A DNA stretch of 63,955 nucleotides, the filler included. It is 12 parts of 12 records of this genome, joined end to end, with 100 filler letters (N's around TTAATTAATTAA, not from the genome) between each part and the next. Parts side by side here need not be neighbours in the genome. Positions count along the whole stretch, not along the records: positions 54,438 to 56,552 come from SRR11831586_1274; positions 56,653 to 58,982 come from SRR11831586_1295; positions 59,083 to 61,082 come from SRR11831586_1297; 9 more parts are not named here. One strand, given 5' to 3'. Every line of letters begins with the position of its first letter. The stretch's first letter is position 1. Below the pieces are notes generated by a model that did not search any database, was not told the origin of the DNA, and saw only the letters and a program-made list of their open reading frames with translations. This document shows, piece after piece, positions 41,236 through 63,955 of this stretch. Position numbers and translations under genes: made by a program.

Positions 41236-41367
41236 TTTTCGCGTGCAATTATATCTTTTTACTTCCGGTATCGCTGTTTTTTACCGGTTTCGATATTTAG
41301 CCCGGAATATGCATTTTTAATCGTCTGTCCGTTTATTTTGCGAAAAGCGTTAAATATTACGAGGTAA
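41236..41367 (+). CDS. wcaD: Colanic acid polymerase WcaD, 3' tail (low-quality contig start)
   Basis: Ends ...[21 protein letters not shown] immediately before wcaE. Confidence 0.75.
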
Positions 41368-41377
41368 GAATAAGAAC

Positions 41378-42124: not shown

Positions 42125-42139
42125 ATATAAGGAAAACCA

Positions 42140-42687: not shown

Positions 42688-42712
42688 ATTCAAAAATACA
42701 GAGGAATAATAC

Positions 42713-43834: not shown

Positions 43835-43836
43835 GC

Positions 43837-43873
43837 ATGAGTAAACAACGAGTTTTTATTGCTGGTCATCGCG
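43837..43873 (+). CDS. fcl: GDP-L-fucose synthase, N-terminal fragment
   Basis: MSKQRVFIAGHR directly after gmd. Confidence 0.85.
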
Positions 43874-43973: not shown

Positions 43974-44691
43974 AGTTCTTTTCTGGATTTTCCGTTTTAT
44001 CGACCAGACCACCAACCGCTTCAATTCCGCCATAGGCAAAAATGGCAAATACCACAAACGATAGCATTGCCAGACCGGACTGATAACCCGGGTTCGGTGA
44101 TGCAAGGAAATTAATATCCTGCGCGAAATGCCCACCATTTAATAACAAAATAGTAATGCTTACTAACAGCAATACTAAATTCAGACACATTACTGCAATA
44201 CCGCCCACCGCAGTAATGCGGGCAATTTTATTAATCCCCTTAGAAGCAACGACGGTGACCAGAATCATCCATGCCACAGCCAGCAGACCAACCACCTGCG
44301 TAGGCTCCAGTCCGGCAATACGCCAGTGCTGGGTCATGTCGCTACCATAGAGGAATGTTGAGAACGGTACCCAAACTTTCGCGGAGGTACTCACCATCCA
44401 GATGATATAAGAGGAAAACCACATAAACGTACCAATGAAGGCAAAACGTGGTCCGACACTATTATTCATCCAGGAATAGATACCGCCTTCTTCTTTGCGA
44501 TAAGCAGCTCCCATTTCAGCCATCATTAAGGCGAATGGAATAAAGAATAACAATGCAGAAAATATATAAAAGGGAATCGCACTATAACCCATTAAGTAAT
44601 AAGCCGATGGGCTATTGGCAAATCCAAATACGGAAGTAAAGATCATCAATATGAGTCCTATCAGACTCATCTTTTTTATCGTGTGAGGCAT
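43974..44691 (-). CDS. yjeM: APC-family transporter YjeM, 3'-truncated
   Basis: Starts MPHTIKKMSL; EGGIYSW motif; downstream of epmA. Confidence 0.9.
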
Positions 44692-44856
44692 GAAACCATC
44701 CTTCATTTCAGCGCGTGTATAACACGTGCCCACTGAACTGCACTGCGCAACATTGAGCAGGCAGCGTAAAAACCAATACAGAATTGATACCTGGATGATA
44801 TCAAATATCCAGTCTTAAATTGTGGCCTTTAACGGAAAAATGAAAACATATGCTAC

Positions 44857-44881
44857 AGAATGGCGCTTATCACGCCATTCT
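44857..44881. terminator. Hairpin after epmA
   Basis: AGAATGGCG-CTTATCA-CGCCATTCT. Confidence 0.55.
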
Positions 44882-44909
44882 TCGCTGTTAATTCAGTAAT
44901 TTTTCAGAA

Positions 44910-45887
44910 TTATGCCCGGTCAACGCTAAAGGCGATGACTTCAGCCAGTGTCTCCGCGCCCAGCGCCAACATCACCAGACGATCAACACCTAATGCCACG
45001 CCGGAACAGTCAGGCATACCGACTTTCAAGGCTTCAATCAGATTCTGGTCAATGGGGTGCTGCGGCAAACCGCGCGCCGCGCGCTTACGGTTATCTTGTT
45101 CAAAGCGTTGTTGCTGCTCACGGGCATCCGTCAATTCATGGAAACCATTCGCCAGCTCAATACCTTTATAATAAACCTCAAAGCGTTCAGCGACCCGATG
45201 ATCTTCGGTACTGATTTGCGCCAGTGATGCCTGGCTGGCTGGAAAGTGGTACACAAAGGTCGGTTTTTCTTTGCCAATATTTGGCTCTACGCCAAAGGTA
45301 AACAGCAATTGTAGCAGCGTGTCGCGGTCTTCTTCGGTATCAGCAACATTGCTCAAATCCAGTTTCGCTGCGACTTCCCGCAGTTGCGTTTTGTCGGCAG
45401 AGAGCGGGTCAATTTCCAGATAACGCAAGAAAGCTTGTTGATAAGAAAGGCTTTCTGCTGCCGGGCAGTCCAGCACCTGTTGTAAGAGATCGTCCACCTC
45501 GTTCATCAACCGGTACATATCATAGTGCGGTCGATACCACTCCAGCATAGTGAACTCAGGGTTGTGATAACGCCCCATCTCTTCATTACGGAAGCTGCGG
45601 CACAGCTGGAATACCGGCCCACAACCGGCAACCAGCAGGCGTTTCATATGGTATTCCGGGCTGGTCATTAACCAGAGATTCATCCCCTGCGAATGCCCGG
45701 GGCCAACGAAACGTGTCTCAAACGGGACCAAATGAATATCGGTTACCGTCGCCTGGCTCATACAAGGCGTCTCCACCTCCAGCACTCCACGATCGGCAAA
45801 GAAACGACGGATCTCCGCCATAATCGCCGCGCGTTTTAATAAGTTAGGAATGGATGCGCTCGGCTGCCAGGATGCCGTTTCGCTCAT
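44910..45887 (-). CDS. epmA: EF-P (R)-beta-lysine ligase
   Basis: 325 aa LysRS paralogue; [10 protein letters not shown] and GVALGVDRL motifs. Confidence 0.96.
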
Positions 45888-46211
45888 AGTTAAATCTCCA
45901 GTTTTTGACAAGGGCACGAAGTCTACTCGCAACGCGACGGCGAGACAAATTTTACGCAGGAATCAAACAGCGGTGGGCAGTGACTAAAAAAAGCACGATC
46001 TGATGGTTTAGTAATTAAATTAATCATCTTCAGTGATAATTTAGCCCTCTTGCGCACTAAAAAAATCGATCTCGTCAAATTTCAGACTTATCCATCAGAC
46101 TATACTGTTGTACCTATAAAGGAGCAGTGGAATAGCGTTCGCAGACCGTAACTTTCAGGTACTTACCCTGAAGTACGTGGCTGTGGGATAAAAACAATCT
46201 GGAGGAATGTC

Positions 46212-48012
46212 GTGCAAACCTTTCAAGCCGATCTTGCCATTGTAGGCGCCGGTGGCGCGGGATTACGTGCTGCAATTGCTGCCGCGCAGGCAAATCCGAA
46301 TGCAAAAATCGCACTAATCTCAAAAGTATACCCGATGCGTAGCCATACCGTTGCTGCAGAAGGGGGCTCCGCCGCTGTCGCGCAGGATCATGACAGCTTC
46401 GAATATCACTTTCACGATACAGTAGCGGGTGGCGACTGGTTGTGTGAGCAGGATGTCGTGGATTATTTCGTCCACCACTGCCCAACCGAAATGACCCAAC
46501 TGGAACTGTGGGGATGCCCATGGAGCCGTCGCCCGGATGGTAGCGTCAACGTACGTCGCTTCGGCGGCATGAAAATCGAGCGCACCTGGTTCGCCGCCGA
46601 TAAGACCGGCTTCCATATGCTGCACACGCTGTTCCAGACCTCTCTGCAATTCCCGCAGATCCAGCGTTTTGACGAACATTTCGTGCTGGATATTCTGGTT
46701 GATGATGGTCATGTTCGCGGCCTGGTAGCAATGAACATGATGGAAGGCACGCTGGTGCAGATCCGTGCTAACGCGGTCGTTATGGCTACTGGCGGTGCGG
46801 GTCGCGTTTATCGTTACAACACCAACGGCGGCATCGTTACCGGTGACGGTATGGGTATGGCGCTAAGCCACGGCGTTCCGCTGCGTGACATGGAATTCGT
46901 TCAGTATCACCCAACCGGTCTGCCAGGTTCCGGTATCCTGATGACCGAAGGTTGCCGCGGTGAAGGCGGTATTCTGGTCAACAAAAATGGCTACCGTTAT
47001 CTGCAAGATTACGGCATGGGCCCGGAAACTCCGCTGGGCGAGCCGAAAAACAAATATATGGAACTGGGTCCACGCGACAAAGTCTCTCAGGCCTTCTGGC
47101 ACGAATGGCGTAAAGGCAACACCATCTCCACGCCGCGTGGCGATGTGGTTTATCTCGACTTGCGTCACCTCGGCGAGAAAAAACTGCATGAACGTCTGCC
47201 GTTCATCTGCGAACTGGCGAAAGCGTACGTTGGCGTCGATCCGGTTAAAGAACCGATTCCGGTACGTCCGACCGCACACTACACCATGGGCGGTATCGAA
47301 ACCGATCAGAACTGTGAAACCCGCATTAAAGGTCTGTTCGCCGTGGGTGAATGTTCCTCTGTTGGTCTGCACGGTGCAAACCGTCTGGGTTCTAACTCCC
47401 TGGCGGAACTGGTGGTCTTCGGCCGTCTGGCCGGTGAACAAGCGACAGAGCGTGCAGCAACTGCCGGTAATGGCAACGAAGCGGCAATTGAAGCGCAGGC
47501 AGCTGGCGTTGAACAACGTCTGAAAGATCTGGTTAACCAGGATGGCGGCGAAAACTGGGCGAAGATCCGCGACGAAATGGGCCTGGCTATGGAAGAAGGC
47601 TGCGGTATCTACCGTACGCCGGAACTGATGCAGAAAACCATCGACAAGCTGGCAGAGCTGCAGGAACGCTTCAAGCGCGTGCGCATCACCGACACTTCCA
47701 GCGTGTTCAACACCGACCTGCTCTACACCATTGAACTGGGCCACGGTCTGAACGTTGCTGAATGTATGGCGCACTCCGCAATGGCACGTAAAGAGTCCCG
47801 CGGCGCGCACCAGCGTCTGGACGAAGGTTGCACCGAGCGTGACGACGTCAACTTCCTCAAACACACCCTCGCCTTCCGCGATGCTGATGGCACGACTCGC
47901 CTGGAGTACAGCGACGTGAAGATTACTACGCTGCCGCCAGCTAAACGCGTTTACGGTGGCGAAGCGGATGCAGCCGATAAGGCGGAAGCAGCCAATAAGA
48001 AGGAGAAGGCGA

Positions 48013-48020
<8 letters not shown>
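46212..48020 (+). CDS. frdA: Fumarate reductase flavoprotein
   Basis: GTG start; 602 aa; [10 protein letters not shown] and HGANRLG motifs. Confidence 0.98.
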
Positions 48021-49153
<1,133 letters not shown>

Positions 49154-49163
49154 GGAGCCTGAG

Positions 49164-50719
<1,556 letters not shown>

Positions 50720-50807
50720 AATTCCATCGGGTCCGAATTTTCGGACCTTTTCTCCGCTTTTCCTTGCTGTCATCTACACTTAGAAAAAAACCAGTAAGGA
50801 AACATTT

Positions 50808-51341
50808 ATGCGCCTGCTCCCTCTCGTTGCCGCAGCGACAGCTGCATTTCTGGTCGTTGCCTGCAGTTCTCCTACGCCGCCGCGTGGCGTGACCGTAGTA
50901 AATAATTTCGACGCCAAACGTTATCTCGGTACCTGGTATGAGATTGCCCGTTTTGATCACCGCTTTGAACGTGGACTGGAAAAAGTCACCGCAACATACA
51001 GCCTGCGTGATGACGGCGGCCTGAATGTCATTAATAAAGGCTATAACCCTGACAGAGGAATGTGGCAGCAGAGTGAAGGGAAAGCGTACTTTACCGGCGC
51101 ACCAACTCGCGCTGCGCTGAAAGTGTCATTCTTTGGTCCTTTCTATGGCGGTTATAACGTTATTGCACTCGATCGGGAATACCGCCATGCGCTGGTTTGC
51201 GGCCCGGACCGCGACTACCTGTGGATACTCTCCCGCACGCCAACCATTTCTGACGAAGTGAAACAGGAGATGCTGGCAGTCGCGACCCGGGAAGGGTTTG
51301 ATGTCAGTAAATTTATTTGGGTACAGCAGCCTGGTAGTTAG
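50808..51341 (+). CDS. blc: Outer membrane lipocalin
   Basis: 177 aa; VVAC lipobox; [10 protein letters not shown] motif. Confidence 0.96.
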
Positions 51342-51655
51342 TGAGTGCTGAGTTTCAGACCAATAATCCCCAATACGATTAACGCCAGACTCGCCAGGCG
51401 CATCGGGTTAGCGGACTCACCGAGCAGCACAATGCCGGTTATGGCCGCGCCGACTGCGCCAATACCCGTCCACACGGCATAAGCCGTCCCTACTGGTAAC
51501 GATTTCATCGCCCAGGCAAGTAGCGCCATACTGACAATCATCGCCGTCACAGTAATAACACTCGGCGTCAAACGACTAAAGCCGTGGGTATATTTCAGGC
51601 CAACGGCCCATACCACTTCCAGCAGACCAGCAATAACTAAGATAATCCAGGACAT
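51338..51655 (-). CDS. gdx: SMR-family guanidinium exporter (SugE)
   Basis: 105 aa; GLLEVVWA and [11 protein letters not shown] motifs. Confidence 0.96.
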
Positions 51656-51671
51656 ATCAGGCTCCGGAGAA

Positions 51672-51720
51672 TTGGGGCCGTCCCCGGTGAAAAGAGGCGT
51701 TTGCAGGTCGTCCTGCAAAG
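51672..51720 (-). ncRNA. Guanidine-II (mini-ykkC) riboswitch
   Basis: Two hairpins with ACGR loops, TTTGCAGG-ACGA-CCTGCAAA and GGGG-ACGG-CCCC, just before the gdx RBS. Confidence 0.92.
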
Positions 51721-51829
51721 CTGATGGTTGAACGGATATTTTGCCAGGTGGCAGGGGAATTTCAACTATTACCTTTGTGACTATCGCAGAAAAACAAACG
51801 GCACGACACAGCTGTCGTACCGTTATTGC

Positions 51830-51976
51830 TTATTGCTGCGCTTTCGTTGCTGCGCCAGAAATCGCGTTACCGCCATCAGAAATGTCTTCACCAACGCCAC
51901 GCGTGGTGTTGCAGGCAGTTAATACTGTTGAAAGCACCAGAACAGAAAAGATCGCTGCAATTGTCTTCTTCACCAT
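51830..51976 (-). CDS. ecnB: Entericidin B lipoprotein (missed by ORF track)
   Basis: [48 protein letters not shown], 48 aa. Confidence 0.93.
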
Positions 51977-52086
51977 AACGTCTTCCTTTTAGGTAATGTT
52001 ATTTATGTTTGCCTATAGCAAATTAATAATAGACAACATCGCCAAAAATGATGGGAATCTGATGATTTTTCGGAAGAGAAGAAAAA

Positions 52087-52212
52087 TTAGCTGGCAGCGC
52101 GAGAGATGGAGTTGCCGAGATGTTTGATGTCTTCGCCGAAACCGCGAGCGGTGTTACAGCCCGTGAGCAGCGTGCTGGCAAGCAAAACAAGAACGATAAG
52201 GCGTTTCATCAT
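52087..52212 (-). CDS. ecnA: Entericidin A lipoprotein (missed by ORF track)
   Basis: [41 protein letters not shown], 41 aa. Confidence 0.93.
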
Positions 52213-52263
52213 CTCTGACCTGAATAAGTGATGGTGCAGCCTGCAGGCCGCACCACAACCGCA

Positions 52264-52830
52264 TTACTTCACGCGAGAGACGTATTCACCAGAGCGGGTA
52301 TCCACTTTGATGACTTCGCCGATTTGTACAAACAGCGGAACTTTAACCACAGCGCCAGTAGACAGGGTAGCCGGTTTGCCACCAGTACCTGCGGTATCAC
52401 CTTTCAGGCCCGGATCGGTATCAACGATTTCCAGTTCAACGAAGTTCGGCGGAGTAACGGAGATCGGCTGACCATTCCACAGAGTTACGATACACTCTGC
52501 CTGATCCAGCAGCCATTTAGCGTTGTCACCAATTGCTTTTGCATCAGCAGACAGCTGCTCGAAAGTTTCGTTGTTCATGAAGTGCCAGAACTCACCGTCG
52601 TTGTACAGGTAAGTCAGGTTCATATCGACAACATCAGCGCCTTCAGCGGAATCAGTAGATTTGAAGGTTTTTTCTACGCGAGTACCGGTCAGCAGACGAC
52701 GCAGTTTAACGCGAGCAAATGCCTGGCCTTTACCCGGTTTTACGAATTCACTCGCTTCAACCGCGTAAGGTTCGCCGTCTAACATGATTTTAAGACCAGC
52801 ACGAAAATCGTTGCTATAGTACGTTGCCAT
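52264..52830 (-). CDS. efp: Elongation factor P
   Basis: 188 aa; KPGKG motif. Confidence 0.98.
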
Positions 52831-52871
52831 AAGGCCCTCTGAAATTTGTTAATTGGTAGCTAAGCCACAAA

Positions 52872-53900
52872 ATGGCGCATATTGTAACCCTAAATACCCC
52901 ATCCAGAGAAGATTGGTTAACGCAACTTGCCGATGTTGTGACCGATCCTGATGAACTTCTGCGTCTTTTGAATATAGACGCGGAGGAAAAACTGTTAGCC
53001 GGACGCAGCGCCAAAAAGCTTTTTGCCCTGCGTGTGCCCCGCTCATTTATCGATCGCATGGAGAAAGGCAATCCGGACGATCCTCTTTTGCGTCAGGTAC
53101 TTACCTCGCAAGATGAGTTTGTCATCGCGCCCGGATTCTCCACCGACCCACTGGAAGAACAGCACAGCGTAGTGCCTGGTTTGTTGCATAAATACCACAA
53201 CCGGGCGCTTTTGCTGGTCAAAGGCGGCTGCGCGGTAAATTGCCGCTATTGCTTCCGTCGTCACTTCCCCTATGCCGAAAATCAGGGCAACAAGCGTAAC
53301 TGGCAAACTGCACTTGAGTATGTTGCTGCGCATCCGGAACTGGACGAGATGATTTTCTCCGGCGGCGATCCGCTGATGGCGAAAGATCACGAGCTGGACT
53401 GGTTGCTCACACAACTGGAAGCCATCCCGCATATAAAACGTCTGCGGATTCACAGCCGTCTGCCGATTGTGATCCCGGCACGTATCACCGAGGCGCTGGT
53501 TGAATGCTTTGCCCGTTCTACGCTGCAAATCTTGCTGGTGAATCACATCAACCATGCCAATGAGGTAGATGAAACATTCCGTCAGGCGATGGCTAAGTTG
53601 CGCCGGGTAGGCGTTACTTTGCTGAACCAGAGCGTTCTGTTACGTGATGTGAACGATAACGCACAAACGCTGGCAAACCTGAGTAATGCGTTGTTCGATG
53701 CCGGCGTAATGCCGTATTACCTGCATGTGCTCGATAAAGTACAGGGCGCGGCGCATTTTATGGTGAGTGATGACGAAGCACGGCAGATTATGCGTGAGTT
53801 GCTGACACTGGTGTCGGGATATCTGGTGCCGAAACTGGCGCGAGAAATTGGCGGCGAACCCAGCAAAACGCCGCTGGATCTCCAGCTACGCCAGCAGTAA
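52872..53900 (+). CDS. epmB: Lysine 2,3-aminomutase for EF-P modification
   Basis: 342 aa; CAVNCRYC radical SAM motif. Confidence 0.97.
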   Translation: MAHIVTLNTPSREDWLTQLADVVTDPDELLRLLNIDAEEKLLAGRSAKKLFALRVPRSFIDRMEKGNPDDPLLRQVLTSQDEFVIAPGFSTDPLEEQHSVVPGLLHKYHNRALLLVKGGCAVNCRYCFRRHFPYAENQGNKRNWQTALEYVAAHPELDEMIFSGGDPLMAKDHELDWLLTQLEAIPHIKRLRIHSRLPIVIPARITEALVECFARSTLQILLVNHINHANEVDETFRQAMAKLRRVGVTLLNQSVLLRDVNDNAQTLANLSNALFDAGVMPYYLHVLDKVQGAAHFMVSDDEARQIMRELLTLVSGYLVPKLAREIGGEPSKTPLDLQLRQQ

Positions 53901-53931
53901 CTGATTAAACAGGGAAGTTAAACATTAAAAT

Positions 53932-54032
53932 TGCCTGATTCGCTACGCTTATCAGGCCTACATCGTGCATTGAAATTGAATGGATTTGCAATGAACTGTA
54001 GGCCGGATAAGGCGTTTACGCTGCATCCGGCA
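53932..54032. repeat. Inverted REP pair (BIME-like)
   Basis: REPs at 53932-53962 and 53997-54032 around an AT-rich linker. Confidence 0.88.
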
Positions 54033-54294
54033 AGAGCAACAAACGCAAGTACAGCAACCTGTCATTAAACTGGGAAGTTTAATCTTTGCCCGTTGCATAA
54101 CCTTTAATTATTCATATGCATTGCTGTTGTTACTTTTTATATAGCTAACACCAATAATTAACCTTTCTTTTCTGTTTATATAGAGTGAGTACGGCTATTT
54201 ATGTTATTTTAACAACTATTACTACCAAGCCCATTTATCTGGCTTATAAATTAAAATTAATTATTTAATTGAGAAATGGTTAGGGAGAACCTAC

Positions 54295-54337
54295 ATGGCC
54301 ATAAGCATCAAGGGTGTTAATACCGGTGTTATTCGCA
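54295..54337 (+). CDS. yjeJ: YjeJ N-terminal fragment
   Basis: MAISIKGVNTGVIR after a GGGAGA RBS; position after epmB fits K-12. Confidence 0.7.
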
Positions 54338-54453
54338 NNNNNNNNNNNNNNNNNNNNNNNNNNNNNNNNNNNNNNNNNNNNTTAATTAATTAANNNNNNN
54401 NNNNNNNNNNNNNNNNNNNNNNNNNNNNNNNNNNNNNGTCCCCGCACACGCAG

Positions 54454-54624
54454 GTCTTCATCGACCGCAACACCAACCTGTCCAAGTGCTTCGGCTTTGT
54501 GTCGTACGACAACGCGGCCAATGCCCAAGTGGCGATTCAGAGCATGAACGGCTTCCAGATCGCGGGACGCCGGCTCAAGGTCCAGGAGAAGCGTGCAGGC
54601 GACGGTGGGCCCCGGCCTTATTAA
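54454..54624 (+). CDS. Eukaryotic CELF/Bruno/CUGBP RNA-binding protein, terminal exon (RRM3)
   Basis: cgcag| [59 protein letters not shown]1 KCFGFVSY and terminal PY are typical of CELF. Confidence 0.9.
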
Positions 54625-54898
54625 ACATCTCGCGAGTGGTTCTGGTTGGTGGAGTAACTGCAGAGACGGGTGTGCACACGCACATGGCATCCGATGGGAT
54701 GAGCGAAACGCAGGAGTCCTGTTTTTGAGAAGTTGGACACAAGGACTGCAGTGGGAGGGAGCGTGAAAGCTTTATAGAGAAGAGCAAGATAAATAACCGC
54801 TACACCACAATCGTACTTGGCTCCTTTGCCACGCGCAGGAAACGATACCACTACACTAGCTGATGTTTGCGCAGAAGAGGGTAAGTGTGAGTGCCCAT

Positions 54899-55457
54899 CT
54901 AAGCTGTGCTGTCTGCCTTTGGTTTATACATCCATGCTGGCAGGATGCCTGCAAGTCCTCGTCTGCGTCATCAAGAAACGGTGTGAGATGAGCACAAAAG
55001 CGAGTGAGGTAGACAGCTTCAACCAACACATTCGTACATACACAACACGTACCCGCTCTTCATTTCGTAATTAACCTTGCGCCATAGTTGAATTTGTTGC
55101 ACAGTTTCATTCGATGCGTGGCACGCAAGCAACAAGTAATTGCGTGGCTGCACCATCCAAGCAAAACGCATGAACAGACCGGAGTACACACAAAGGGCTG
55201 CACAGTTACATATTGGTAAGCACTAAACGGTATCAACGTAATAGCGCATACCTGAAGTCATCGGAGCGGAAATGATCTCTGGACTCTTTTGCATATCGGC
55301 CAATCCGGCAATAACAAATCCCCAATTTGCTATGGGACCCCAGAAATGGGCTACATTCGGAAGCAAATAGTAAGAGACATACGATGCGAATTCATTACCG
55401 CATACTCGTCTTCGGCCCAGTTGGACTGTTCCAGAACCTCGCAAAAGAGGAGGCCAT
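54899..55457 (-). CDS. MPC1: Eukaryotic mitochondrial pyruvate carrier 1, 4 exons, 119 aa
   Basis: Exons 55457-55406, 55350-55252, 55197-55053 and 54962-54899, all GT-AG and in phase; [15 protein letters not shown] and [19 protein letters not shown] motifs. The last exon is less certain. Confidence 0.9.
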
Positions 55458-55650
55458 GATCAATATTATATCAGTGCTACAATCGGCCAAAGAATACTGT
55501 GCAGTGAGCACATGCGGCTGCGCTCTTTCAGTCTTTCAATGTGTCCGCACGCCCCTCCACACTGCACAGGCTGGCTGGTGTGCGCTAATCGCGAAGCAAT
55601 TTTCAAGTGTATGTTTTCATGTTTATGCCTTTGCGTTGTTGTGTGTAGCG

Positions 55651-56036
55651 ATGAACGACACGTTCTCTCCACATAAAAGACTCCGAGGTATGCGAACACT
55701 GCGTATGAATTGTGAGGTTTGAGCTCTACAACAGATGAAGGCGATGTGGACGGAGGAGTCTCGCTCTCCAAGGCACTGGGGACTGTAATGGAGTTCATCA
55801 ACGTCCACGAGCAGTATAATCACGACGAGGTACCACTTTTGGAACGCCGATGAAGATGCCATCTGCCGTGCTTGTCGCTAACGCAGTGCGTGTCTGTGTT
55901 GCTGTAGCAGGGAATTTCGGCGGATCTGAACGATGTTTTGATGCAGTTGCTTCTGCTTGACCATATGATCAACAGCAAAATTATCGCTGAGCTGAGTGGC
56001 GAGCATCACACGGACGGCAGCCCCACAGAGCTGTGA
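55651..56036 (+). CDS. Putative small eukaryotic orphan protein, 3 exons, about 86 aa
   Basis: Exons 55651-55687, 55735-55829 and 55908-56036 join in phase through GT-AG introns; CTAAC branch site at 55878; no recognised homology. Confidence 0.5.
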
Positions 56037-56220
56037 CTCGCAGCGCGACACACAAGGACCAGCGCAGAACGAGCGGTCGATGAGCAATAGTATATGATGA
56101 TAATTCTTTTTGGATGCACAGAAACCACAAAACCGAATGGAACCAAATACACTGAATATAAACGCCAGGGCAGAGAGAAATACGAAGTGCAACGGTGTTT
56201 ATTCTAAGCGGTGTGTGACT

Positions 56221-56519
56221 TTAAGCGGTCGAGGGAGCTTCACCTGCAGCAGCGCACTGTACGTTAGATACACTGCAACACGCAGAGACACAGACACACA
56301 CGAACACGGACAGACACCGCATACATTGTGGAAACACACAGATACACGTAGCAGGACGCGGGCGTACCCTTGGACTTCTTCGCCTTGCCCTTCTTGACAG
56401 ACGTCTTGAGGAGAGCAACAATCTCGGCATCCTGCACCGTCTTCTCGCTCTACACACAATGATACAAACATGCAAATCAGGCACACAGACAGGAACAACG
56501 TACGCGAGAGGGTTCCACG
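56221..56519 (-). CDS. 3' exons of a eukaryotic gene, probably the C-terminus of the BTB-BACK gene
   Basis: Exons 56519-56504, 56449-56368 and 56243-56221 give VEPSRSEKTVQDAEIVALLKTSVKKGKAKKSKGEAPSTA*; GTACG donors; CTAAC before the last acceptor. Confidence 0.6.
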
Positions 56520-56526
56520 CTAAGTT

Positions 56527-56552
56527 ACACACACACACACACACACACACAC
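56527..56552. repeat. (AC)13 microsatellite at contig end
   Basis: Directly visible. Confidence 0.97.
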
Positions 56553-56652
56553 NNNNNNNNNNNNNNNNNNNNNNNNNNNNNNNNNNNNNNNNNNNNTTAA
56601 TTAATTAANNNNNNNNNNNNNNNNNNNNNNNNNNNNNNNNNNNNNNNNNNNN

Positions 56653-58982
56653 TTTGCCGATGGTCACGGACAGGTGATGCATAGCAACCGCGACTGGGAG
56701 GACAGCTATCGCCAGCGTTGGCAGTTCGACAAAATCGTGCGTTCCACCCACGGTGTTAACTGTACAGGCTCCTGTAGCTGGAAAATCTACGTTAAAAATG
56801 GTCTGGTGACCTGGGAAATCCAACAGACCGACTACCCGCGCACTCGCCCTGACCTGCCCAATCATGAACCTCGCGGCTGCCCGCGTGGCGCAAGTTACTC
56901 CTGGTATCTTTACAGCGCTAACCGCCTGAAATACCCGCTCATTCGTAAACGACTGATTGAACTGTGGCGCGAAGCCCTCAAGCAACACAGCGATCCGGTA
57001 CTGGCGTGGGCATCGATTATGAACGATCCGCAAAAGTGCCTGAGCTACAAACAAGTGCGTGGGCGCGGCGGGTTTATCCGCTCCAACTGGCAGGAACTAA
57101 ACCAGCTGATTGCCGCCGCTAACGTCTGGACCATCAAAACCTACGGCCCGGATCGCGTTGCCGGTTTCTCGCCGATCCCGGCGATGTCGATGGTTTCTTA
57201 CGCCGCCGGAACGCGTTATCTGTCGCTGCTTGGCGGCACCTGTTTAAGTTTCTACGACTGGTATTGCGACCTGCCGCCCGCCTCGCCGATGACCTGGGGC
57301 GAGCAAACCGACGTACCGGAATCTGCCGACTGGTATAACTCCAGCTACATCATCGCCTGGGGGTCTAACGTACCGCAGACACGTACGCCGGACGCCCACT
57401 TCTTTACCGAAGTACGCTACAAAGGCACTAAAACCATCGCCATTACCCCTGACTACTCTGAAGTGGCCAAATTGTGCGACCAGTGGCTGGCACCGAAACA
57501 AGGCACTGATAGCGCCCTGGCGATGGCAATGGGCCATGTGATTTTAAAAGAGTTTCATCTCGATAATCCCAGCGACTACTTTATCAACTACTGCCGCCGC
57601 TACAGCGACATGCCGATGCTGGTAATGCTGGAGCCTCGCGACGATGGTAGCTACGTTCCCGGGCGCATGATCCGCGCATCTGACCTGGTGGATGGACTGG
57701 GCGAAAGCAACAATCCGCAGTGGAAAACCGTAGCAGTTAATACCGCAGGTGAATTGGTAGTGCCGAACGGTTCGATTGGTTTCCGCTGGGGAGAAAAAGG
57801 CAAATGGAATCTGGAATCCATTGCCGCCGGTACGGAAACCGAATTGTCGTTAACCCTGCTCGGTCAACATGACGCTGTTGCAGGCGTGGCCTTCCCCTAC
57901 TTTGGCGGCATTGAAAATCCGCATTTTCGCAGCGTAAAACACAATCCGGTGCTGGTGCGCCAATTGCCCGTTAAAAACCTGACGTTAGTCGATGGCAACA
58001 CCTGTCCGGTGGTCAGCGTTTATGATTTGGTACTGGCGAATTACGGCCTCGATCGCGGGCTGGAAGATGAAAACAGTGCGAAAGATTACGCTGAAATCAA
58101 ACCGTACACCCCAGCCTGGGGTGAGCAAATTACCGGCGTGCCGCGCCAGTATATTGAAACCATCGCCCGTGAATTTGCCGATACCGCCCATAAAACGCAT
58201 GGGCGCTCGATGATTATCCTCGGCGCAGGTGTTAACCACTGGTATCACATGGACATGAACTACCGCGGGATGATCAATATGCTGATCTTCTGCGGTTGTG
58301 TCGGGCAAAGCGGTGGCGGCTGGGCACACTATGTCGGCCAGGAAAAACTGCGCCCACAAACCGGCTGGTTGCCACTGGCCTTTGCGCTCGACTGGAACCG
58401 ACCACCGCGCCAAATGAACAGCACCTCGTTTTTCTACAATCATTCCAGCCAATGGCGCTATGAAAAAGTCTCTGCTCAGGAGTTACTTTCACCGCTCGCC
58501 GATGCCAGTAAGTACAGCGGTCATCTGATTGATTTCAACGTTCGCGCCGAACGTATGGGCTGGCTACCTTCTGCGCCGCAGCTGGGGCGTAACCCGCTCG
58601 GGATTAAAGCTGAAGCCGACAAGGCCGGATTATCCCCCACAGAATTTACCGCCCAGGCGCTGAAATCGGGCGATTTACGTATGGCCTGCGAACAACCAGA
58701 TAGCAGCAGCAATCATCCGCGTAATTTGTTTGTCTGGCGCTCTAACCTGCTTGGCTCCTCCGGCAAAGGCCACGAGTATATGCAGAAGTATCTGCTGGGG
58801 ACCGAAAGCGGGATTCAGGGCGAGGAACTCGGTGCCAGCGACGGGATCAAACCGGAAGAAGTCGAGTGGCAAACTGCAGCGATTGAAGGCAAGCTCGACC
58901 TGCTGGTGACGCTCGACTTCCGCATGTCCAGTACCTGCCTGTTCTCCGATATCGTTCTGCCCACCGCCACCTGGTACGAAAA
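56653..58982 (+). CDS. narZ: Nitrate reductase Z alpha subunit, internal fragment
   Basis: FADGHGQVMHSNRDWEDSYRQRWQFDK (NarZ-type rather than NarG); HGVNCTGSC motif. Confidence 0.93.
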
Positions 58983-59082
58983 NNNNNNNNNNNNNNNNNN
59001 NNNNNNNNNNNNNNNNNNNNNNNNNNTTAATTAATTAANNNNNNNNNNNNNNNNNNNNNNNNNNNNNNNNNNNNNNNNNNNN

Positions 59083-59100
59083 ACACACACACACACACAC
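59083..59100. repeat. (AC)9 microsatellite at contig start
   Basis: Directly visible. Confidence 0.97.
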
Positions 59101-59257
59101 GCGTTTCTAGATATGGAACTATTAATACACAGCGACACAAGAGAAAGAATGTGGACGAGCGCACACCGCATGCGGAAACATCCCACATCTGATAATGATA
59201 ATTGCATCTATGCCATCACTGCAAACACAATCCGCAACAAAACATGTGCAGACGTAC

Positions 59258-60743
59258 ACACGCGGGATCTTCTTGCACGCATCCAGGAGCCCGACCCGCT
59301 CAAACATCCCTGACACGGCCGACCCGTAACAAAACTGCGCCACAAGCGGGTGATCGAGGACCTTATCGATGTACTCGCCGGTGATATCGCGGAAGGATAC
59401 CACTTGAAGCAGATCGGCGATTTGATCGTTGGTGAGAGGCTCTTCCTCCGCACTCTGATAGAGACGGACACACAGACACACACATACACACGAAAACATC
59501 CAATACACAAACACACACATACACGAGAGGAAAGACACATACGCAGGATCAGCATCGAAAAGAGGTCAACGCGCCACGAAAAACACACGTTTCAACCATT
59601 CACCATAAGGCCATTTCGGTGCTACTGTTCTCTAGATGATGGTTGAATTCGAGCGAAGAGGAGGAGCAGGAACGGCAAGTATATAAACACATAGAAAAGA
59701 AAAGGTATGTGTGTTTGGGGGGATTTCGCATGAAACACATACCCGCCGCGCGATGTACTCTGCCACGGCATCAAACAGAACAAACTCGGTCGCAATGCAC
59801 AGACGTTCTGACTTGATCACGCGCTCGAAAAAGTAGCAGGGCAGGTCCAGGATGCTTTCCCTCATGACCGCAAAGTTCTCCGCAAGCAGCCCACAGCACA
59901 CCACCACCACATCCTCTGTACACGGAGAGACACAAGCACACACACAAGCACACGCCACATGGAAAACGTTAAAACCACGATGGGAGCGTGAAGAATATCA
60001 GTGCCGTCTGGAGCGCAGTGCTATATCATGGCCTTCTCTTAAAGCAACACAGCGCAAATCGTACATTGCGGGATTACATAGAAGACGTGTTGTTACGTAT
60101 ACGGGACCAGCACACATATCGACGAACAGCGTCGAAATATAGTGCGCACAGATACGAACGCACCACCAACGCACGCAAGAAAAACAAAAGCACAGCGACC
60201 GAGCAGGTACCTGATTCTGGATATTGCAGCGCATTCTGCATGATATCAAACGCGTTCTCCACGGTCACAATCGTGCGCAGCTGCGAGGTGAGTAGGTCCT
60301 TCAAAGACTTGATCTGCATCTGCTCGGATAACGCGAGTACAGCAGGGATGTGCTCAAACGGAACTTGAATTTTGTTGGTATAGAGATATTGCAGCACCGA
60401 AGGGAACACGTTCAGTGGATCGGGGAAGTGAAACACCATTTCGCTGTGGCCGATCTCAGACCAAGATCCGCTCATCATCACTCCGAAGAAGTCGCACATA
60501 GATGAGAGAATCAACCTACAAAGGACCGCAGGCACTGAGCCGCACGCTCACTCTGACGATCGATGCAGAATCGTACTTGTGCACGTTGTAGCGTTTGTCC
60601 CCCACAATCAATGTGAAGTCGGAGAACTGACCGGACTCGAGCGCAGCAGAAAAGTCATACTCTACTAAATCTACCGACACGGGAGGAATGACGCGTATCG
60701 GCTTCGGCGTCTCATCTGCCGTAGTTGGTGCTACCTCCGCCAT
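59258..60743 (-). CDS. Eukaryotic BTB/POZ-BACK domain protein, exons 1-4
   Basis: Exons 60743-60577, 60515-60211, 59915-59743 and 59454-59258 join in phase; BTB motifs SDFTLIVG..HKLILS..CDFF and VLQYLYT; BACK motifs ENF..DLP..EFVLFDAV..LLQVVSF. Confidence 0.85.
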
Positions 60744-61182
60744 AGCGTTCGCAAACCACACTCGCAGAAGATATCAAGAACACAGCACGCCACGCACGGT
60801 ACTTGCCTTCAGGGAGTTTTCTGGCCTTCGGCCAACGAAGTCAGACTTTGTCTGACAGCCCCTATCGAGTCTGTTGAGGATTAAAACTCCTCTAGAAAAC
60901 CGATGTGAGTGGCTGCCGCGGAATCGTGAACACCACTCGCCCGACGCGTCCCGAACAATGACGATGAGATACCGAATCAACCTGTAGTCGAAAGCTGCTC
61001 TACACAGTCGTAAATCGCATGACAGAGGTCAATCCGGCGGACTTGGCGGCGTTTGAAGAAGTGAAGGTTATTACAGTTGACCNNNNNNNNNNNNNNNNNN
61101 NNNNNNNNNNNNNNNNNNNNNNNNNNTTAATTAATTAANNNNNNNNNNNNNNNNNNNNNNNNNNNNNNNNNNNNNNNNNNNN

Positions 61183-61942
61183 CCCGCAAAGCCGCATGGA
61201 TGGCGAATGGGATGAGCGCGATATGGTGGGCTTTGCCCGCCTGATGGCGGCGCATCGTCATGAAATCGCGGCGGTGATCATTGAGCCGATTGTCCAGGGC
61301 GCAGGCGGGATGCGCATGTACCATCCGGAATGGTTAAAACGAATCCGCAAAATATGCGATCGCGAAGGTATCTTGCTGATTGCCGACGAGATCGCCACTG
61401 GATTTGGTCGTACCGGGAAACTGTTTGCCTGTGAACATGCAGAAATCGCGCCGGACATTTTGTGCCTCGGTAAAGCCTTAACCGGCGGCACAATGACCCT
61501 TTCCGCCACACTCACCACGCGCGAGGTTGCAGAAACCATCAGTAACGGTGAAGCCGGTTGCTTTATGCATGGGCCAACTTTTATGGGCAATCCGCTGGCC
61601 TGCGCGGCAGCAAACGCCAGCCTGGCGATTCTCGAATCTGGCGACTGGCAGCAACAGGTGGCGGATATTGAAGTACAGCTGCGCGAGCAACTTGCCCCCG
61701 CCCGTGATGCCGAAATGGTTGCCGATGTGCGCGTACTGGGGGCCATTGGCGTGGTCGAAACCACTCATCCGGTGAATATGGCGGCGCTGCAAAAATTCTT
61801 TGTCGAACAGGGTGTCTGGATCCGGCCTTTTGGCAAACTGATTTACCTGATGCCGCCCTATATTATTCTCCCGCAACAGTTGCAGCGTCTGACCGCAGCG
61901 GTTAACCGCGCGGTACAGGATGAAACATTTTTTTGCCAATAA
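61183..61942 (+). CDS. bioA: DAPA aminotransferase, 5'-truncated
   Basis: [21 protein letters not shown] and HGPTFMGNP motifs. Confidence 0.96.
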
Positions 61943-62000
61943 CGAGAAGTCCGCGTGAGGGTTTCTGGCTACACTTTCTGCAAACAAGAAAGGAGGGTTC

Positions 62001-62477
62001 ATGAAACTCATCAGTAACGATCTGCGCGATGGCGATAAATTGCCGCATCGTCATGTCTTTAACGGCATGGGTTACGATGGCGATAATATTTCACCGCATC
62101 TGGCGTGGGATGATGTTCCTGCGGGAACGAAAAGTTTTGTTGTCACCTGCTACGACCCGGATGCGCCAACCGGCTCCGGCTGGTGGCACTGGGTAGTTGT
62201 TAACTTACCCGCTGATACCCGCGTATTACCGCAAGGGTTTGGCTCTGGTCTGGTAGCAATGCCAGACGGCGTTTTGCAGACGCGTACCGACTTTGGTAAA
62301 ACCGGGTACGATGGCGCAGCACCGCCGAAAGGCGAAACTCATCGCTACATTTTTACCGTTCACGCGCTGGATATAGAACGTATTGATGTCGATGAAGGTG
62401 CCAGCGGCGCGATGGTCGGGTTTAACGTTCATTTCCACTCTCTGGCAAGCGCCTCGATTACTGCGATGTTTAGTTAA
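62001..62477 (+). CDS. ybhB: PEBP/RKIP-family protein
   Basis: 158 aa; DPDAPTGSGWWHW motif. Confidence 0.95.
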   Translation: MKLISNDLRDGDKLPHRHVFNGMGYDGDNISPHLAWDDVPAGTKSFVVTCYDPDAPTGSGWWHWVVVNLPADTRVLPQGFGSGLVAMPDGVLQTRTDFGKTGYDGAAPPKGETHRYIFTVHALDIERIDVDEGASGAMVGFNVHFHSLASASITAMFS

Positions 62478-62562
62478 TCACTCTGCCAGATGGCGCAATG
62501 CCATCTGGTATCACTTAAAGGTATTAAAAACAACTTTTTGTCTTTTTACCTTCCCGTTTCGC

Positions 62563-62587
62563 TCAAGTTAGTATAAAAAAGCAGGCT
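62563..62587 (-). other. Phage lambda attB, unoccupied
   Basis: Minus strand AGCCTGCTTTTTTATACTAACTTGA with the 15-bp core at 62568-62582, between ybhB and ybhC. Confidence 0.95.
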
Positions 62588-62628
62588 TCAACGGATTCAT
62601 TTTTCTATTTCATAGCCCGGAGCAACCT

Positions 62629-63912
62629 GTGAACACATTTTCAGTTTCCCGTCTGGCGCTGGCATTGGCTTTTGGCGTGACGCTGACCGCCTGTAGCTCA
62701 ACCCCGCCCGATCAACGTCCTTCTGATCAAACCGCGCCTGGTACCTCTTCTCGCCCGATTCTGTCGGCAAAAGAAGCGCAGAATTTCGATGCTCAACACT
62801 ATTTTGCATCCCTGACACCAGGTGCTGCAGCGTGGAATCCTTCCCCGATTACCCTGCCTGCGCAACCTGACTTTGTTGTCGGCCCGGCGGGCACTCAAGG
62901 TGTAACGCATACCACGATTCAGGCGGCGGTAGATGCGGCAATTATCAAGCGTACCAACAAGCGCCAGTATATTGCCGTGATGCCTGGTGAGTATCAGGGA
63001 ACGGTATATGTCCCTGCCGCTCCGGGTGGAATTACTCTGTACGGTACAGGTGAAAAACCGATTGATGTGAAGATTGGGCTTTCCCTTGATGGTGGCATGA
63101 GCCCTGCCGACTGGCGTCACGACGTCAACCCGCGCGGCAAATATATGCCAGGTAAACCAGCGTGGTATATGTACGATAGCTGCCAGAGCAAACGCAGCGA
63201 CAGTATCGGTGTTCTCTGCTCTGCGGTCTTCTGGTCACAAAACAATGGCCTGCAACTGCAAAATCTGACCATCGAAAACACGCTGGGCGATAGCGTAGAT
63301 GCAGGTAACCATCCGGCGGTGGCACTGCGTACTGATGGTGACCAGGTACAGATTAACAACGTTAACATTCTCGGTCGTCAGAACACCTTCTTTGTCACCA
63401 ACAGCGGTGTGCAGAACCGTCTGGAAACGAATCGTCAGCCGCGTACGCTGGTGACCAACAGCTACATTGAAGGGGATGTGGATATCGTTTCTGGTCGCGG
63501 CGCAGTGGTGTTCGATAACACCGAATTCCGCGTGGTGAACTCACGTACTCAGCAAGAAGCGTATGTGTTTGCACCGGCTACGCTGTCCAACATTTACTAC
63601 GGTTTCCTCGCCGTAAACAGCCGTTTCAATGCTTTCGGTGATGGTGTGGCGCAACTGGGCCGCTCGCTGGATGTTGATGCCAATACCAACGGTCAGGTGG
63701 TGATCCGTGATAGCGCCATCAACGAAGGTTTTAACACGGCTAAACCGTGGGCCGATGCGGTGATCTCTAATCGTCCGTTTGCGGGTAATACCGGCAGCGT
63801 AGATGATAACGACGAAATACAGCGCAATCTGAATGACACTAACTACAACCGCATGTGGGAATACAATAACCGCGGCGTGGGTAGTAAAGTGGTTGCAGAG
63901 GCGAAGAAGTAA
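62629..63912 (+). CDS. ybhC: Outer membrane lipoprotein with pectinesterase-like fold
   Basis: GTG start; 427 aa; LTAC lipobox; EGDVDIVSG motif. Confidence 0.95.
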   Translation: MNTFSVSRLALALAFGVTLTACSSTPPDQRPSDQTAPGTSSRPILSAKEAQNFDAQHYFASLTPGAAAWNPSPITLPAQPDFVVGPAGTQGVTHTTIQAAVDAAIIKRTNKRQYIAVMPGEYQGTVYVPAAPGGITLYGTGEKPIDVKIGLSLDGGMSPADWRHDVNPRGKYMPGKPAWYMYDSCQSKRSDSIGVLCSAVFWSQNNGLQLQNLTIENTLGDSVDAGNHPAVALRTDGDQVQINNVNILGRQNTFFVTNSGVQNRLETNRQPRTLVTNSYIEGDVDIVSGRGAVVFDNTEFRVVNSRTQQEAYVFAPATLSNIYYGFLAVNSRFNAFGDGVAQLGRSLDVDANTNGQVVIRDSAINEGFNTAKPWADAVISNRPFAGNTGSVDDNDEIQRNLNDTNYNRMWEYNNRGVGSKVVAEAKK

Positions 63913-63927
63913 GAGCAATTAACTATT

Positions 63928-63955
63928 TGCCGGATGCGGCGTAAACGCCTTATCC
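63928..63955. repeat. REP element, truncated at window end
   Basis: TGCCGGATGCGGCGTAAACGCCTTATCC. Confidence 0.88.

What the first reader, a model, noticed from the sequence alone, without database searches (positions are those of the whole stretch)
54438..61082. Two contigs of eukaryotic nuclear DNA hidden among E. coli contigs
Seen: 54438-56552 and 59083-61082 lack long ORFs but contain coding blocks separated by GT..AG introns that join in phase. Donors include GTATGC, GTACGT and GTATGT; some introns have a CTAAC branch site. Known: the products belong to eukaryote-specific families (CELF, MPC1, BTB-BACK). Inference: the assembly mixes a gene-dense microbial eukaryote with laboratory E. 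coli (food, cloning host or contaminant). I cannot name the organism.
Basis: partly seen in the sequence, partly recalled or inferred. Interest (0 to 1): 0.7.

Follow-up and report, generated by a model that had tools for sequence, protein, structure and literature searches.

The report
Eukaryote contigs inside E. coli assembly
Two short contigs in this E. coli K-12 assembly are real intron-containing nuclear DNA from an unidentified, gene-dense eukaryote, so this is a mixed or contaminated assembly and not new bacterial biology.

Summary
The window is 12 contigs joined by artificial N44-TTAATTAATTAA-N44 linkers.

**Bacterial contigs.** All ten other contigs match E. coli. Those compared with the E. 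coli collection are 100% identical to K-12 laboratory strains, and one is F-plasmid tra DNA.

**The two flagged contigs.** Contigs 54438-56552 and 59083-61082 match nothing in 5,426 E. coli genomes, the nearest held genome or 72,556 plasmids.
- They resemble each other in tetranucleotide use (r 0.78) but not E. coli (r about 0.2), and lack long ORFs.
- They carry a CELF-type RRM3 last exon, an MPC1 gene of at least three exons, and a BTB(-BACK)-SPRY-family gene of at least four exons.
- Removing five GT..AG introns (54-295 nt) gives gap-free alignments to full-length homologues. Relatives have introns at the same sites.

**Open points.** The organism could not be named: best matches are anonymous (MPC1 exon 91%, BTB exon 79%) and the MPC1 tree is unresolved. 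How the two DNAs came together (food bacterium, cross-contamination, mis-binning or cloned insert) cannot be told without reads. Interest is low.

The parts
54438..56552 (.). Contig A: eukaryotic nuclear DNA, GC 0.505, with parts of four genes
   Evidence: No match in the E. coli collection, the nearest genome G001 or plasmids. Tetranucleotide r is 0.78 against contig B and 0.21 against the E. coli contigs.
54454..54624 (+). Last exon of a CELF/Bruno-type RNA-binding protein. It holds the C-terminal part of RRM3 and ends in PY plus a TAA stop. It is preceded by a CAG acceptor at 54451-54453.
   Evidence: Pfam RRM_1 at 38.8 bits. There were 5,384 hits; the named ones among the 120 listed are CELF-type proteins at 68-75% identity, nearly all over the whole exon. 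The best solved structures are CELF1 and CELF2 RRM3, E about 2e-19.
55406..55457 (-). MPC1 exon 1 (ATG at 55457)
   Evidence: tblastn of intron-less MPC1 homologues finds the N-terminus here in a different frame from exon 2. Gene model.
55351..55405 (-). MPC1 intron 1: 55 nt, GTATGC..TAG, phase 1
   Evidence: It is the only in-phase GT..AG pair within +-15 nt.
55252..55350 (-). MPC1 exon 2
   Evidence: Pfam MPC profile positions 5-49, 47.4 bits.
55198..55251 (-). MPC1 intron 2: 54 nt, GTATGC..CAG, phase 1, with an in-frame stop
   Evidence: All 7 intron-less homologues tested show an 18-residue gap exactly here. The relative P0001 reads through a longer intron at the same site. It is the only in-phase GT..AG pair within +-15 nt.
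55053..55197 (-). MPC1 exon 3. It is followed by a GTACGT donor at 55052-55047. Whether a third intron is used, or the frame simply runs on to the stop after 55022, is unresolved.
   Evidence: Pfam MPC profile positions 46-95, 50.1 bits. There were 395 MPC hits. The best solved structures are MPC1. Candidate last exons are listed.
55651..56036 (+). Tentative three-exon small ORF 'A3' (about 86 aa; exons 55651-55687, 55735-55829, 55908-56036), with no recognisable family
   Evidence: Model. Several alternative in-phase GT..AG joins exist. No Pfam or PDB match for the pieces tested.
56368..56449 (-). Tentative internal exon of a fourth gene 'A4' (Lys-rich), with a TAG acceptor upstream and a GTACGC donor downstream. 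The gene runs off the contig.
   Evidence: No Pfam match.
56527..56552 (.). (AC)13 microsatellite at the contig end
59083..61082 (.). Contig B: eukaryotic nuclear DNA, GC 0.506. It starts with (AC)9 at 59083-59100.
   Evidence: No match in the E. coli collection, G001 or plasmids. Composition. Repeats.
60577..60743 (-). BTB-family gene exon 1 (ATG at 60743)
   Evidence: It aligns to P0242 residues 21-48.
60516..60576 (-). BTB intron 1: 61 nt, GTACGA..TAG, phase 2
   Evidence: It is the only in-phase GT..AG pair within +-15 nt.
60211..60515 (-). BTB exon 2 (most of the BTB domain)
   Evidence: Pfam BTB at 38.1 bits, profile positions 25-107. P0241 is 79% identical and P0242 55% identical over all 101 residues tested.
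59916..60210 (-). BTB intron 2: 295 nt, GTACCT..CAG, phase 1, TG-rich on the sense strand
   Evidence: The relative P0241 reads into an intron at the same site.
59743..59915 (-). BTB exon 3 (BACK-like region)
   Evidence: It aligns to P0242 residues 153-209. Pfam BACK scores only 14.1 bits, below the cut-off.
59455..59742 (-). BTB intron 3: 288 nt, GTATGT..CAG, phase 0. The boundaries are ambiguous by a few codons.
   Evidence: There are 7 in-phase GT..AG pairs within +-15 nt.
59258..59454 (-). BTB exon 4. Homology runs to 59263 and a possible GTACGT donor starts at 59257. The SPRY-coding part expected from relatives lies beyond the contig end.
   Evidence: It aligns to P0242 residues 211-272. 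Sequence shown.
61019..61081 (+). Start of a further open frame, divergent from the BTB gene and about 275 nt from its ATG. It runs off the contig. Tentative.
   Evidence: No Pfam match.

Best explanation
Contigs 54438-56552 and 59083-61082 are nuclear genomic DNA of one unidentified eukaryote. It is gene-dense, about 50% GC, and has short GT-AG introns and many CA/TG repeats. This DNA was sequenced and assembled, or binned, together with an E. coli K-12 strain carrying F-plasmid DNA.

The two contigs are not part of the bacterial genome, and nothing in them functions in E. coli. In their own organism they encode:
- the end of a CELF-type RNA-binding protein;
- mitochondrial pyruvate carrier subunit 1;
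- a BTB(-BACK)-SPRY protein, by family analogy probably a substrate adaptor for a cullin-3 ubiquitin ligase;
- two or three small unassigned genes.

Shown here: the foreign origin, the gene families, and the intron-exon structure by homology.

Inferred: that both contigs come from the same organism, what that organism broadly is, and how the mixture arose.
For: 1. **Layout.** The window is 12 contigs joined by artificial linkers.

2. **A and B are not E. coli.**
- No megablast match in 20,395 E. coli records.
- No blastn match in 72,556 plasmids.
- No match in the nearest genome G001, while the flanking contigs do match.

3. **All 10 other contigs match E. coli or G001**.
- The 10.4-kb and 3.2-kb contigs are 100% identical to DH5alpha, NEB 5-alpha and K-12.
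- One contig is F tra DNA, 100% identical to F' plasmids of K-12 strains.

4. **Composition.**
- Tetranucleotide r between A and B is 0.78.
- Each against E. coli gives about 0.2.
- The E. coli contigs give 0.56-0.95 among themselves.

5. **Families.**
- The Pfam MPC and BTB profiles are each split co-linearly over two frames.
- The MPC1 exon has 395 hits, and every named one is a eukaryotic MPC1.
- The CELF exon is 68-75% identical to animal CELF1-4, including the terminal PY.
- The best PDB matches are CELF1/2 RRM3 and MPC1.

6. **Introns.**
- Intron-less homologues align in separate blocks, with gaps exactly at the proposed introns.
- After removal of the five introns, the BTB model aligns to P0242 over 265 residues (E 3e-79), with its only gap away from the junctions.
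- The MPC1 model aligns gap-free over 94-95 residues at 75-80% identity.
- Relatives P0001 and P0241 read through introns at the same positions.

7. **Coding signal.** Exons have GC1/GC2/GC3 of 0.56/0.37/0.66. Introns are T-rich and A-poor on the sense strand.
Against: - No RNA data, so splicing is inferred only from homology.
- No read depth, and the rest of the assembly is not held. The abundance of the eukaryote, and whether rRNA or mitochondrial contigs exist, are therefore unknown.
- Two gene models (A3, A4) and the ORF at 61019 have no homologue and could be wrong.
- That A and B come from one organism rests only on composition and shared intron style.
Confidence: 0.9

Rival explanations
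1. The eukaryotic DNA is a set of cloned inserts (genomic library, fosmid or plasmid) carried by the K-12 strain as a cloning host. It would then be physically inside the bacterial cells, not a separate organism in the sample.
For: The E. coli contigs are 100% identical to classical cloning-strain lineages (DH5alpha, DH1, NEB 5-alpha), and F DNA is present.
Against: - None of the four contig ends carries vector sequence. Two ends are (AC)n microsatellites and two lie inside genes or introns.
- Neither contig matches any of 72,556 plasmid records.
- The F contig is tra DNA. By my own knowledge this is absent from F-derived BAC and fosmid vectors, so it points to a real F or F' plasmid.
- The two loci are unlinked.
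Confidence: 0.07
2. The eukaryotic genes were horizontally transferred and are integrated in the E. coli chromosome or a plasmid.
For: Only that the contigs sit in an assembly otherwise made of E. coli.
Against: - No bacterial sequence lies on either contig.
- The genes are broken by spliceosomal-type introns that a bacterium cannot remove.
- Composition is unlike E. coli.
- Neither contig matches any of the 5,426 E. coli genomes searched.
Confidence: 0.01
3. The contigs come from a giant virus, a nucleomorph or an organelle and not from a nucleus.
For: High gene density and short introns.
Against: - By established knowledge, MPC1, CELF and BTB-SPRY are ordinary nuclear genes.
- Introns of 54-295 nt and about 50% GC do not fit nucleomorphs, which by my own knowledge have tiny, AT-rich introns.
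- No tRNA or Rfam RNA family was found.
- Relatives keep the same intron positions.
Confidence: 0.01

Closest known systems
Cross-kingdom contamination of public genome assemblies (Conterminator, PMC7218494; NCBI FCS-GX, PMC10246020). For both papers I saw only the search listing and the start of the abstract.
   Same: Short contigs of a second organism, from another kingdom, sit among correctly labelled contigs and have no physical link to them.
   Different: Here the foreign DNA matches no named organism in the collections I could search, so a screen based on identity to reference genomes might miss it.
Mitochondrial pyruvate carrier 1 (Pfam PF03650; human MPC1 structures 9mnw and 8yw6; plant MPC1 such as the Nelumbo protein P0012)
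   Same: The spliced model aligns over 88-95 residues at 75-81% identity to plant, algal and protist MPC1. Its best solved relatives are MPC1 and MPC1-like.
   Different: - The gene is split by two, possibly three, short introns.
- The C-terminal tail is unresolved.
- The sequence falls outside the land-plant cluster in an unresolved tree.
CELF/Bruno family (CUGBP Elav-like family; CELF1 RRM3 2cpz, CELF2 RRM3 2my7)
   Same: The last exon is 68-75% identical to animal CELF1-4 RRM3 and, like many listed hits, ends in PY.
   Different: Only 56 residues lie on the contig. RRM1, RRM2 and the linker cannot be seen.
BTB-BACK-SPRY proteins P0242 and P0245 (470 aa each, unnamed sources), and more distantly BTB-BACK proteins such as the KLHL and BTBD9 families
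   Same: The order BTB then BACK-like region is co-linear with P0242 over 265 residues at 41% identity. P0242 and P0245 carry BTB and SPRY, and P0245 also BACK, by Pfam.
   Different: - The family is rare: only 6 of 1.84 billion cluster representatives score E <= 1e-10.
- In the relatives the C-terminal domain is SPRY and not Kelch. In the window it lies beyond the contig end.

Membership tests
Spliceosomal (U2-type GT-AG) introns of a nuclear gene | GT at the 5' end and AG at the 3' end, interrupting the reading frame | tested here: met
   5 of 5 homology-anchored introns. The chosen pair is the only in-phase pair within +-15 nt for 3 of the 5.
Spliceosomal (U2-type GT-AG) introns of a nuclear gene | Removal restores a continuous protein that is co-linear with intron-less homologues | tested here: met
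   Alignments are gap-free across all 5 junctions. Before removal, the gaps sit exactly at those sites.
Spliceosomal (U2-type GT-AG) introns of a nuclear gene | Spliced RNA observed | not testable with these tools
Mitochondrial pyruvate carrier, subunit 1 (PF03650) | Match to the MPC profile above Pfam's cut-off | tested here: met
   47.4 and 50.1 bits for the two exon pieces, against a cut-off of 27.
Mitochondrial pyruvate carrier, subunit 1 (PF03650) | Closer to MPC1 than to MPC2 | tested here: met
   All 4 PDB matches at E <= 1e-3 are MPC1 or MPC1-like, with no MPC2. Nearly all named homologues are called mitochondrial pyruvate carrier, many of them MPC1, or hypothetical protein.
Mitochondrial pyruvate carrier, subunit 1 (PF03650) | Pyruvate transport as a heterodimer with MPC2 | not testable with these tools
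CELF/Bruno RNA-binding proteins | C-terminal RRM3 closer to CELF than to other RRM families | tested here: met
   CELF1/2 RRM3 score E 2e-19 to 6e-19. The best match not named as CELF or Bruno-like is nucleolin at 7e-12. The named proteins among the 120 best hits are CELF-type or unnamed.
CELF/Bruno RNA-binding proteins | Two N-terminal RRMs, a divergent linker and a third RRM | not testable with these tools
   Only the last exon is on the contig.
BTB-BACK(-SPRY) proteins | BTB/POZ domain | tested here: met
   38.1 bits against a cut-off of 20.5, profile positions 25-107. Exon 1 supplies positions 3-27.
BTB-BACK(-SPRY) proteins | BACK domain after BTB | tested here: inconclusive
   14.1 bits against a cut-off of 20.9 in the window. 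BACK passes in relatives P0245 and P0247 but is not listed for the closest full-length relative P0242.
BTB-BACK(-SPRY) proteins | C-terminal SPRY domain | not testable with these tools
   It lies beyond the contig end. It is present in P0242 and P0245.
E. coli K-12 (the host assembly) | Contigs identical to K-12 derivatives | tested here: met
   100% identity over the full length to MG1655, C600, DH5alpha, DH1 and NEB 5-alpha. Some non-K-12 strains are also 100% identical for the shorter contigs.

The most novel reading that the evidence does not exclude
The two contigs come from a eukaryote, probably a heterotrophic or algal protist, that has no public genome or proteome.
- In collections of about 15 billion proteins, the nearest MPC1 and BTB relatives are anonymous short contigs at 91% and 79% identity (one exon each).
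- The BTB-BACK-SPRY family has only six clear relatives.

On this reading the contaminated E. coli assembly is an accidental first glimpse of an unsampled lineage with a compact genome, short GTAY-type introns and TG-rich intron tails.
Probability: 0.3. Interest if true: 0.35.

Novelty: new member of a known kind. Interest (0 to 1): 0.2.

Why it matters
The main value is data hygiene.
- An assembly that is otherwise E. coli carries eukaryotic genes (MPC1, CELF, BTB-SPRY).
- If these are taken at face value, they would appear as false bacterial proteins or false horizontal transfers in pan-genome and protein-family databases.
- The foreign DNA matches no named reference that I could search, so identity-based contamination screens may not flag it.

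A secondary point is that the contigs are a small sample of a compact eukaryotic genome that seems not to be publicly represented. The source laboratory could identify it at once from its own records.

Tried and rejected
- **Public sequencing runs.** For contig B, none was listed and no RNA holder was listed. This says nothing about expression.
- **Whole assembly.** It is not held, so I could not look for 18S rRNA, mitochondrial contigs or further eukaryotic contigs.
- **Word-based homologue search with BTB exon 2.** No hit. The exhaustive HMMER search then found 65.
- **Names for the anonymous relatives.** The sources of P0001, P0241 and P0242 therefore stay unknown.
- **Related DNA in JGI metagenomes.** None found with the exon or with alignment A1.
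- **Related DNA in GTDB genomes.** None for BTB. For MPC1 (alignment A2) there was one 15-residue match in an Acidimicrobiia MAG, which I take as chance.
- **MPC1 tree (45 rows).** The window's protein lies outside the land-plant rows in an open polytomy with algae and protists. No starred clade holds it, so there is no placement.
- **TSA prefix of the EukProt hit P0005.** Not found in the paper library.
- **Earlier notes of this scan.** Nothing by place, sequence or words.
- **Other searches on A to B.** Rfam and tRNA scans found nothing. The last exon of A3 has no PDB match even at E <= 10.
- **A and B as neighbours joined at their (AC)n ends.** Considered and rejected. The BTB gene would need about 200 more codons, for the SPRY domain, downstream of 59083. 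On that arrangement the space is taken by gene A4.
- **Candidate taxa from memory.** Fungi, animals, land plants, Capsaspora, Acanthamoeba and others. None could be tested beyond noting that named MPC1 hits are plants, a cryptophyte, Nannochloropsis, Plasmodiophora and a green alga, while named CELF hits are animals. These two signals conflict and are probably database-driven.
Full report
**Layout of the window**

The window is not one molecule. It is 12 stretches joined by an artificial linker, N44 + TTAATTAATTAA + N44 (linker word confirmed). The finding concerns two of them:
- A = 54438-56552 (2115 nt);
- B = 59083-61082 (2000 nt).

The stretch between them (56653-58982) is a fragment of E. 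coli narZ at 100% identity.

**The surrounding contigs are E. coli K-12 plus F**

All ten other stretches match E. coli or the nearest held genome G001.
- 1-15110.
- 15211-22655 is 100% identical to MG1655, C600 and J53.
- 22756-27571 and 31428-37840.
- 27672-31327 is F-plasmid traN/traU/trbC/traF. It is 100% identical to F' plasmids of K-12 strains, and 3,137 of its 3,174 matching places are on plasmids.
- 37941-41135 is 100% identical to DH5alpha, NEB 5-alpha and K-12.
- 41236-43873.
- 43974-54337 is 100% identical to DH5alpha, NEB 5-alpha, ER1821R and DH1. Only 812 of 5,431 matching records reach 99% or more.
- 61183-63955.

The bacterial part is therefore a K-12 laboratory lineage with F DNA.

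One further point is an inference. Several bacterial contigs are only 2-3 kb long and end inside unique genes; one, for example, lies wholly inside narZ. This suggests that the E. coli was itself assembled at low coverage. That fits a mixed sample better than a clean isolate.

**A and B are foreign to E. coli**
- Neither has a megablast match in 20,395 E. coli records from 5,426 genomes.
- Neither has a blastn match in 72,556 plasmids.
- Neither has a match in G001, although the flanking contigs in the same query do.
- Tetranucleotide correlation is 0.78 between A and B. It is 0.20-0.21 between each of them and the pooled E. coli contigs. The E. coli contigs give 0.56-0.95 with one another and 0.08-0.27 with A and B.
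- The longest stop-free frames are 135 and 157 aa, against 374-855 aa in the bacterial contigs.
- Both contigs have about 50.5% GC, close to E. coli, so GC alone would not separate them.

**Genes on contig A**

*CELF-type last exon, 54454-54624(+).*
- It is preceded by a CAG acceptor. It encodes the second half of an RRM and ends in PY plus a stop.
- Pfam RRM_1 scores 38.8 bits.
- Among 5,384 hits, the named ones in the 120 listed are CELF-type proteins of animals. They are 68-75% identical, nearly all over the whole exon.
- Several fetched hits end the same way.
- The best solved structures are CELF1 and CELF2 RRM3 (E about 2e-19). The next family is far behind, at 7e-12.

*MPC1, minus strand.*
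- Exons are 55457-55406, 55350-55252 and 55197-55053.
- Introns are 55 and 54 nt. Both are GTATGC..AG and phase 1.
- The Pfam MPC profile is split co-linearly over two frames: positions 5-49 and 46-95, at 47.4 and 50.1 bits against a cut-off of 27.
- All seven intron-less homologues tested by tblastn show an 18-residue gap, containing a stop, exactly at intron 2. Six of the seven find the N-terminus in another frame upstream of intron 1.
- The spliced model aligns gap-free over 94-95 residues at 75-80% identity.
- It is 74-84% identical to the 45 best of the 120 fetched MPC1 proteins.
- Solved relatives are MPC1 and MPC1-like, with no MPC2.
- The closest protein, P0001, is anonymous and 91% identical over exon 3. 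It is a read-through of a related gene with a longer intron at the same site. It also continues past the same point where the window has a GTACGT donor after exon 3.
- Whether that third donor is used is open. Candidate last exons give different short tails. Without splicing, the frame simply ends 10 codons later.

*Two further models without homologues.*
- A 3-exon small ORF lies at 55651-56036(+). A Lys-rich exon lies at 56368-56449(-). Neither matches Pfam or PDB.
- They are tentative, because in-phase GT..AG pairs are easy to find by chance (10 and 4 alternatives).

**Gene on contig B**
- A minus-strand gene starts at 60743. Its exons are 60743-60577, 60515-60211, 59915-59743 and 59454 to about 59258.
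- Its introns are 61, 295 and 288 nt. The donors are GTACGA, GTACCT and GTATGT, and the phases are 2, 1 and 0.
- Pfam BTB is split between exon 1 (profile positions 3-27) and exon 2 (positions 25-107, 38.1 bits). BACK reaches only 14.1 bits in exon 3.
- An exhaustive HMMER search of 1.84 billion cluster representatives with exon 2 gave 65 hits, of which only 6 have E <= 1e-10.
  - P0241 is 79% identical. It is a read-through into a TG/CA-rich intron at the site of intron 2.
  - P0242 is 55% identical and 470 aa long.
- P0242 aligns to contig B in four co-linear blocks.
- P0242 aligns to the spliced model over 265 residues (41% identity, E 3e-79). The only gap is near the N-terminus, so all three junctions are gap-free.
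- P0242 and P0245 carry BTB and a C-terminal SPRY domain, and P0245 also passes BACK.
- The family is therefore BTB(-BACK)-SPRY. The SPRY part of the window's gene lies beyond 59083.
- A divergent open frame starts at 61019(+).

**Strength of the intron evidence**
- For 3 of the 5 homology-anchored introns, the chosen GT..AG pair is the only in-phase pair within +-15 nt. The other two have 2 and 7.
- All five donors begin GTAY.
- Exons show codon-position structure: GC1/GC2/GC3 are 0.56/0.37/0.66 over 1,566 nt. The five introns are T-rich (0.36) and A-poor (0.17) on the sense strand, with TG-rich tails.
- An exact CTAAC occurs only in the two tentative models. The anchored introns have at best CTTAC or GTAAC.
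- (AC)n runs end contig A and begin contig B, and imperfect AC-rich arrays sit in introns. This probably explains why the assembly broke there.

**Which organism?** This is unresolved.
- No protein of the window has a near-identical match in the protein collections searched, so no annotated public proteome of this species was found there.
- Named MPC1 hits are land plants, a cryptophyte, Nannochloropsis, Plasmodiophora and a green alga. Named CELF hits are animals. I take both patterns as conserved ancestral sequence plus database bias.
- The MPC1 tree puts the window outside the land-plant rows in an unsupported polytomy.
- The gene density (parts of four genes in 2.1 kb), the 54-61 nt introns and the rarity of the BTB-SPRY family argue against an animal or a land plant and for a microbial eukaryote. 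This is inference.
Metagenome, GTDB-genome and sequencing-run look-ups gave nothing.

**How the mixture arose** cannot be decided here.
- Candidates are K-12 as food or companion in a protist culture, carry-over between libraries, or mis-binning of contigs with similar GC.
- Cloned inserts are less likely. No contig end carries vector, no plasmid record matches, and the F contig is tra DNA.
- Integration into the bacterial genome has no support at all.

**Comparison and verdict**
- The phenomenon, contigs from another kingdom in a public assembly, is well known. See PMC7218494 and PMC10246020, for which I saw the search listing and the start of the abstract only.
- The genes are ordinary members of known families.
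- The finding matters for database hygiene. It also gives a small, anonymous sample of a compact eukaryotic genome.
- It is not a discovery about bacteria.

Noticed in passing
window 15111-15210 and the ten other linkers (for example 54338-54437, 56553-56652): Every contig junction is N44 + TTAATTAATTAA + N44. This 12-mer has stops in all six frames, so it is an artificial concatenation linker and not biology.
   Followed up: yes
window 27672-31327: F-plasmid transfer genes (traN, traU, trbC, traF, trbE), 100% identical to the F' plasmids of K-12 laboratory strains. The K-12 strain in this assembly therefore carries F or an F'.
   Followed up: partly
window 56653-58982 and other 2-3 kb bacterial contigs: The bacterial contigs are short and end inside unique genes; one lies wholly inside narZ. 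This suggests the E. coli itself was assembled at low coverage, as expected for a minor component of a mixed sample.
   Followed up: no
window 15385-19652, 61183-63955 and parts of 43974-54337, against G001: Several contigs that are 100% identical to K-12 match the nearest held genome G001 at only 75-88%, while others match it at 100%. G001 therefore seems mosaic or unusually divergent from K-12 in these regions. I did not pursue this.
   Followed up: no
P0243 and P0244 (relatives of the BTB exon, and alignment A1): Both relatives break off into what looks like read-through of a GT.TG-type donor right after a conserved SLK motif. The window's gene has no intron there, so intron positions differ within this small family.
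   Followed up: no
window 59455-59742, 59916-60210 and 56250-56367 (minus-strand sense): The introns carry long imperfect (TG)n/(TGTC)n tracts on the sense strand upstream of the 3' splice site. The relative P0241 shows the same at its intron start. This may be a lineage mark that could help to identify the organism.
   Followed up: partly
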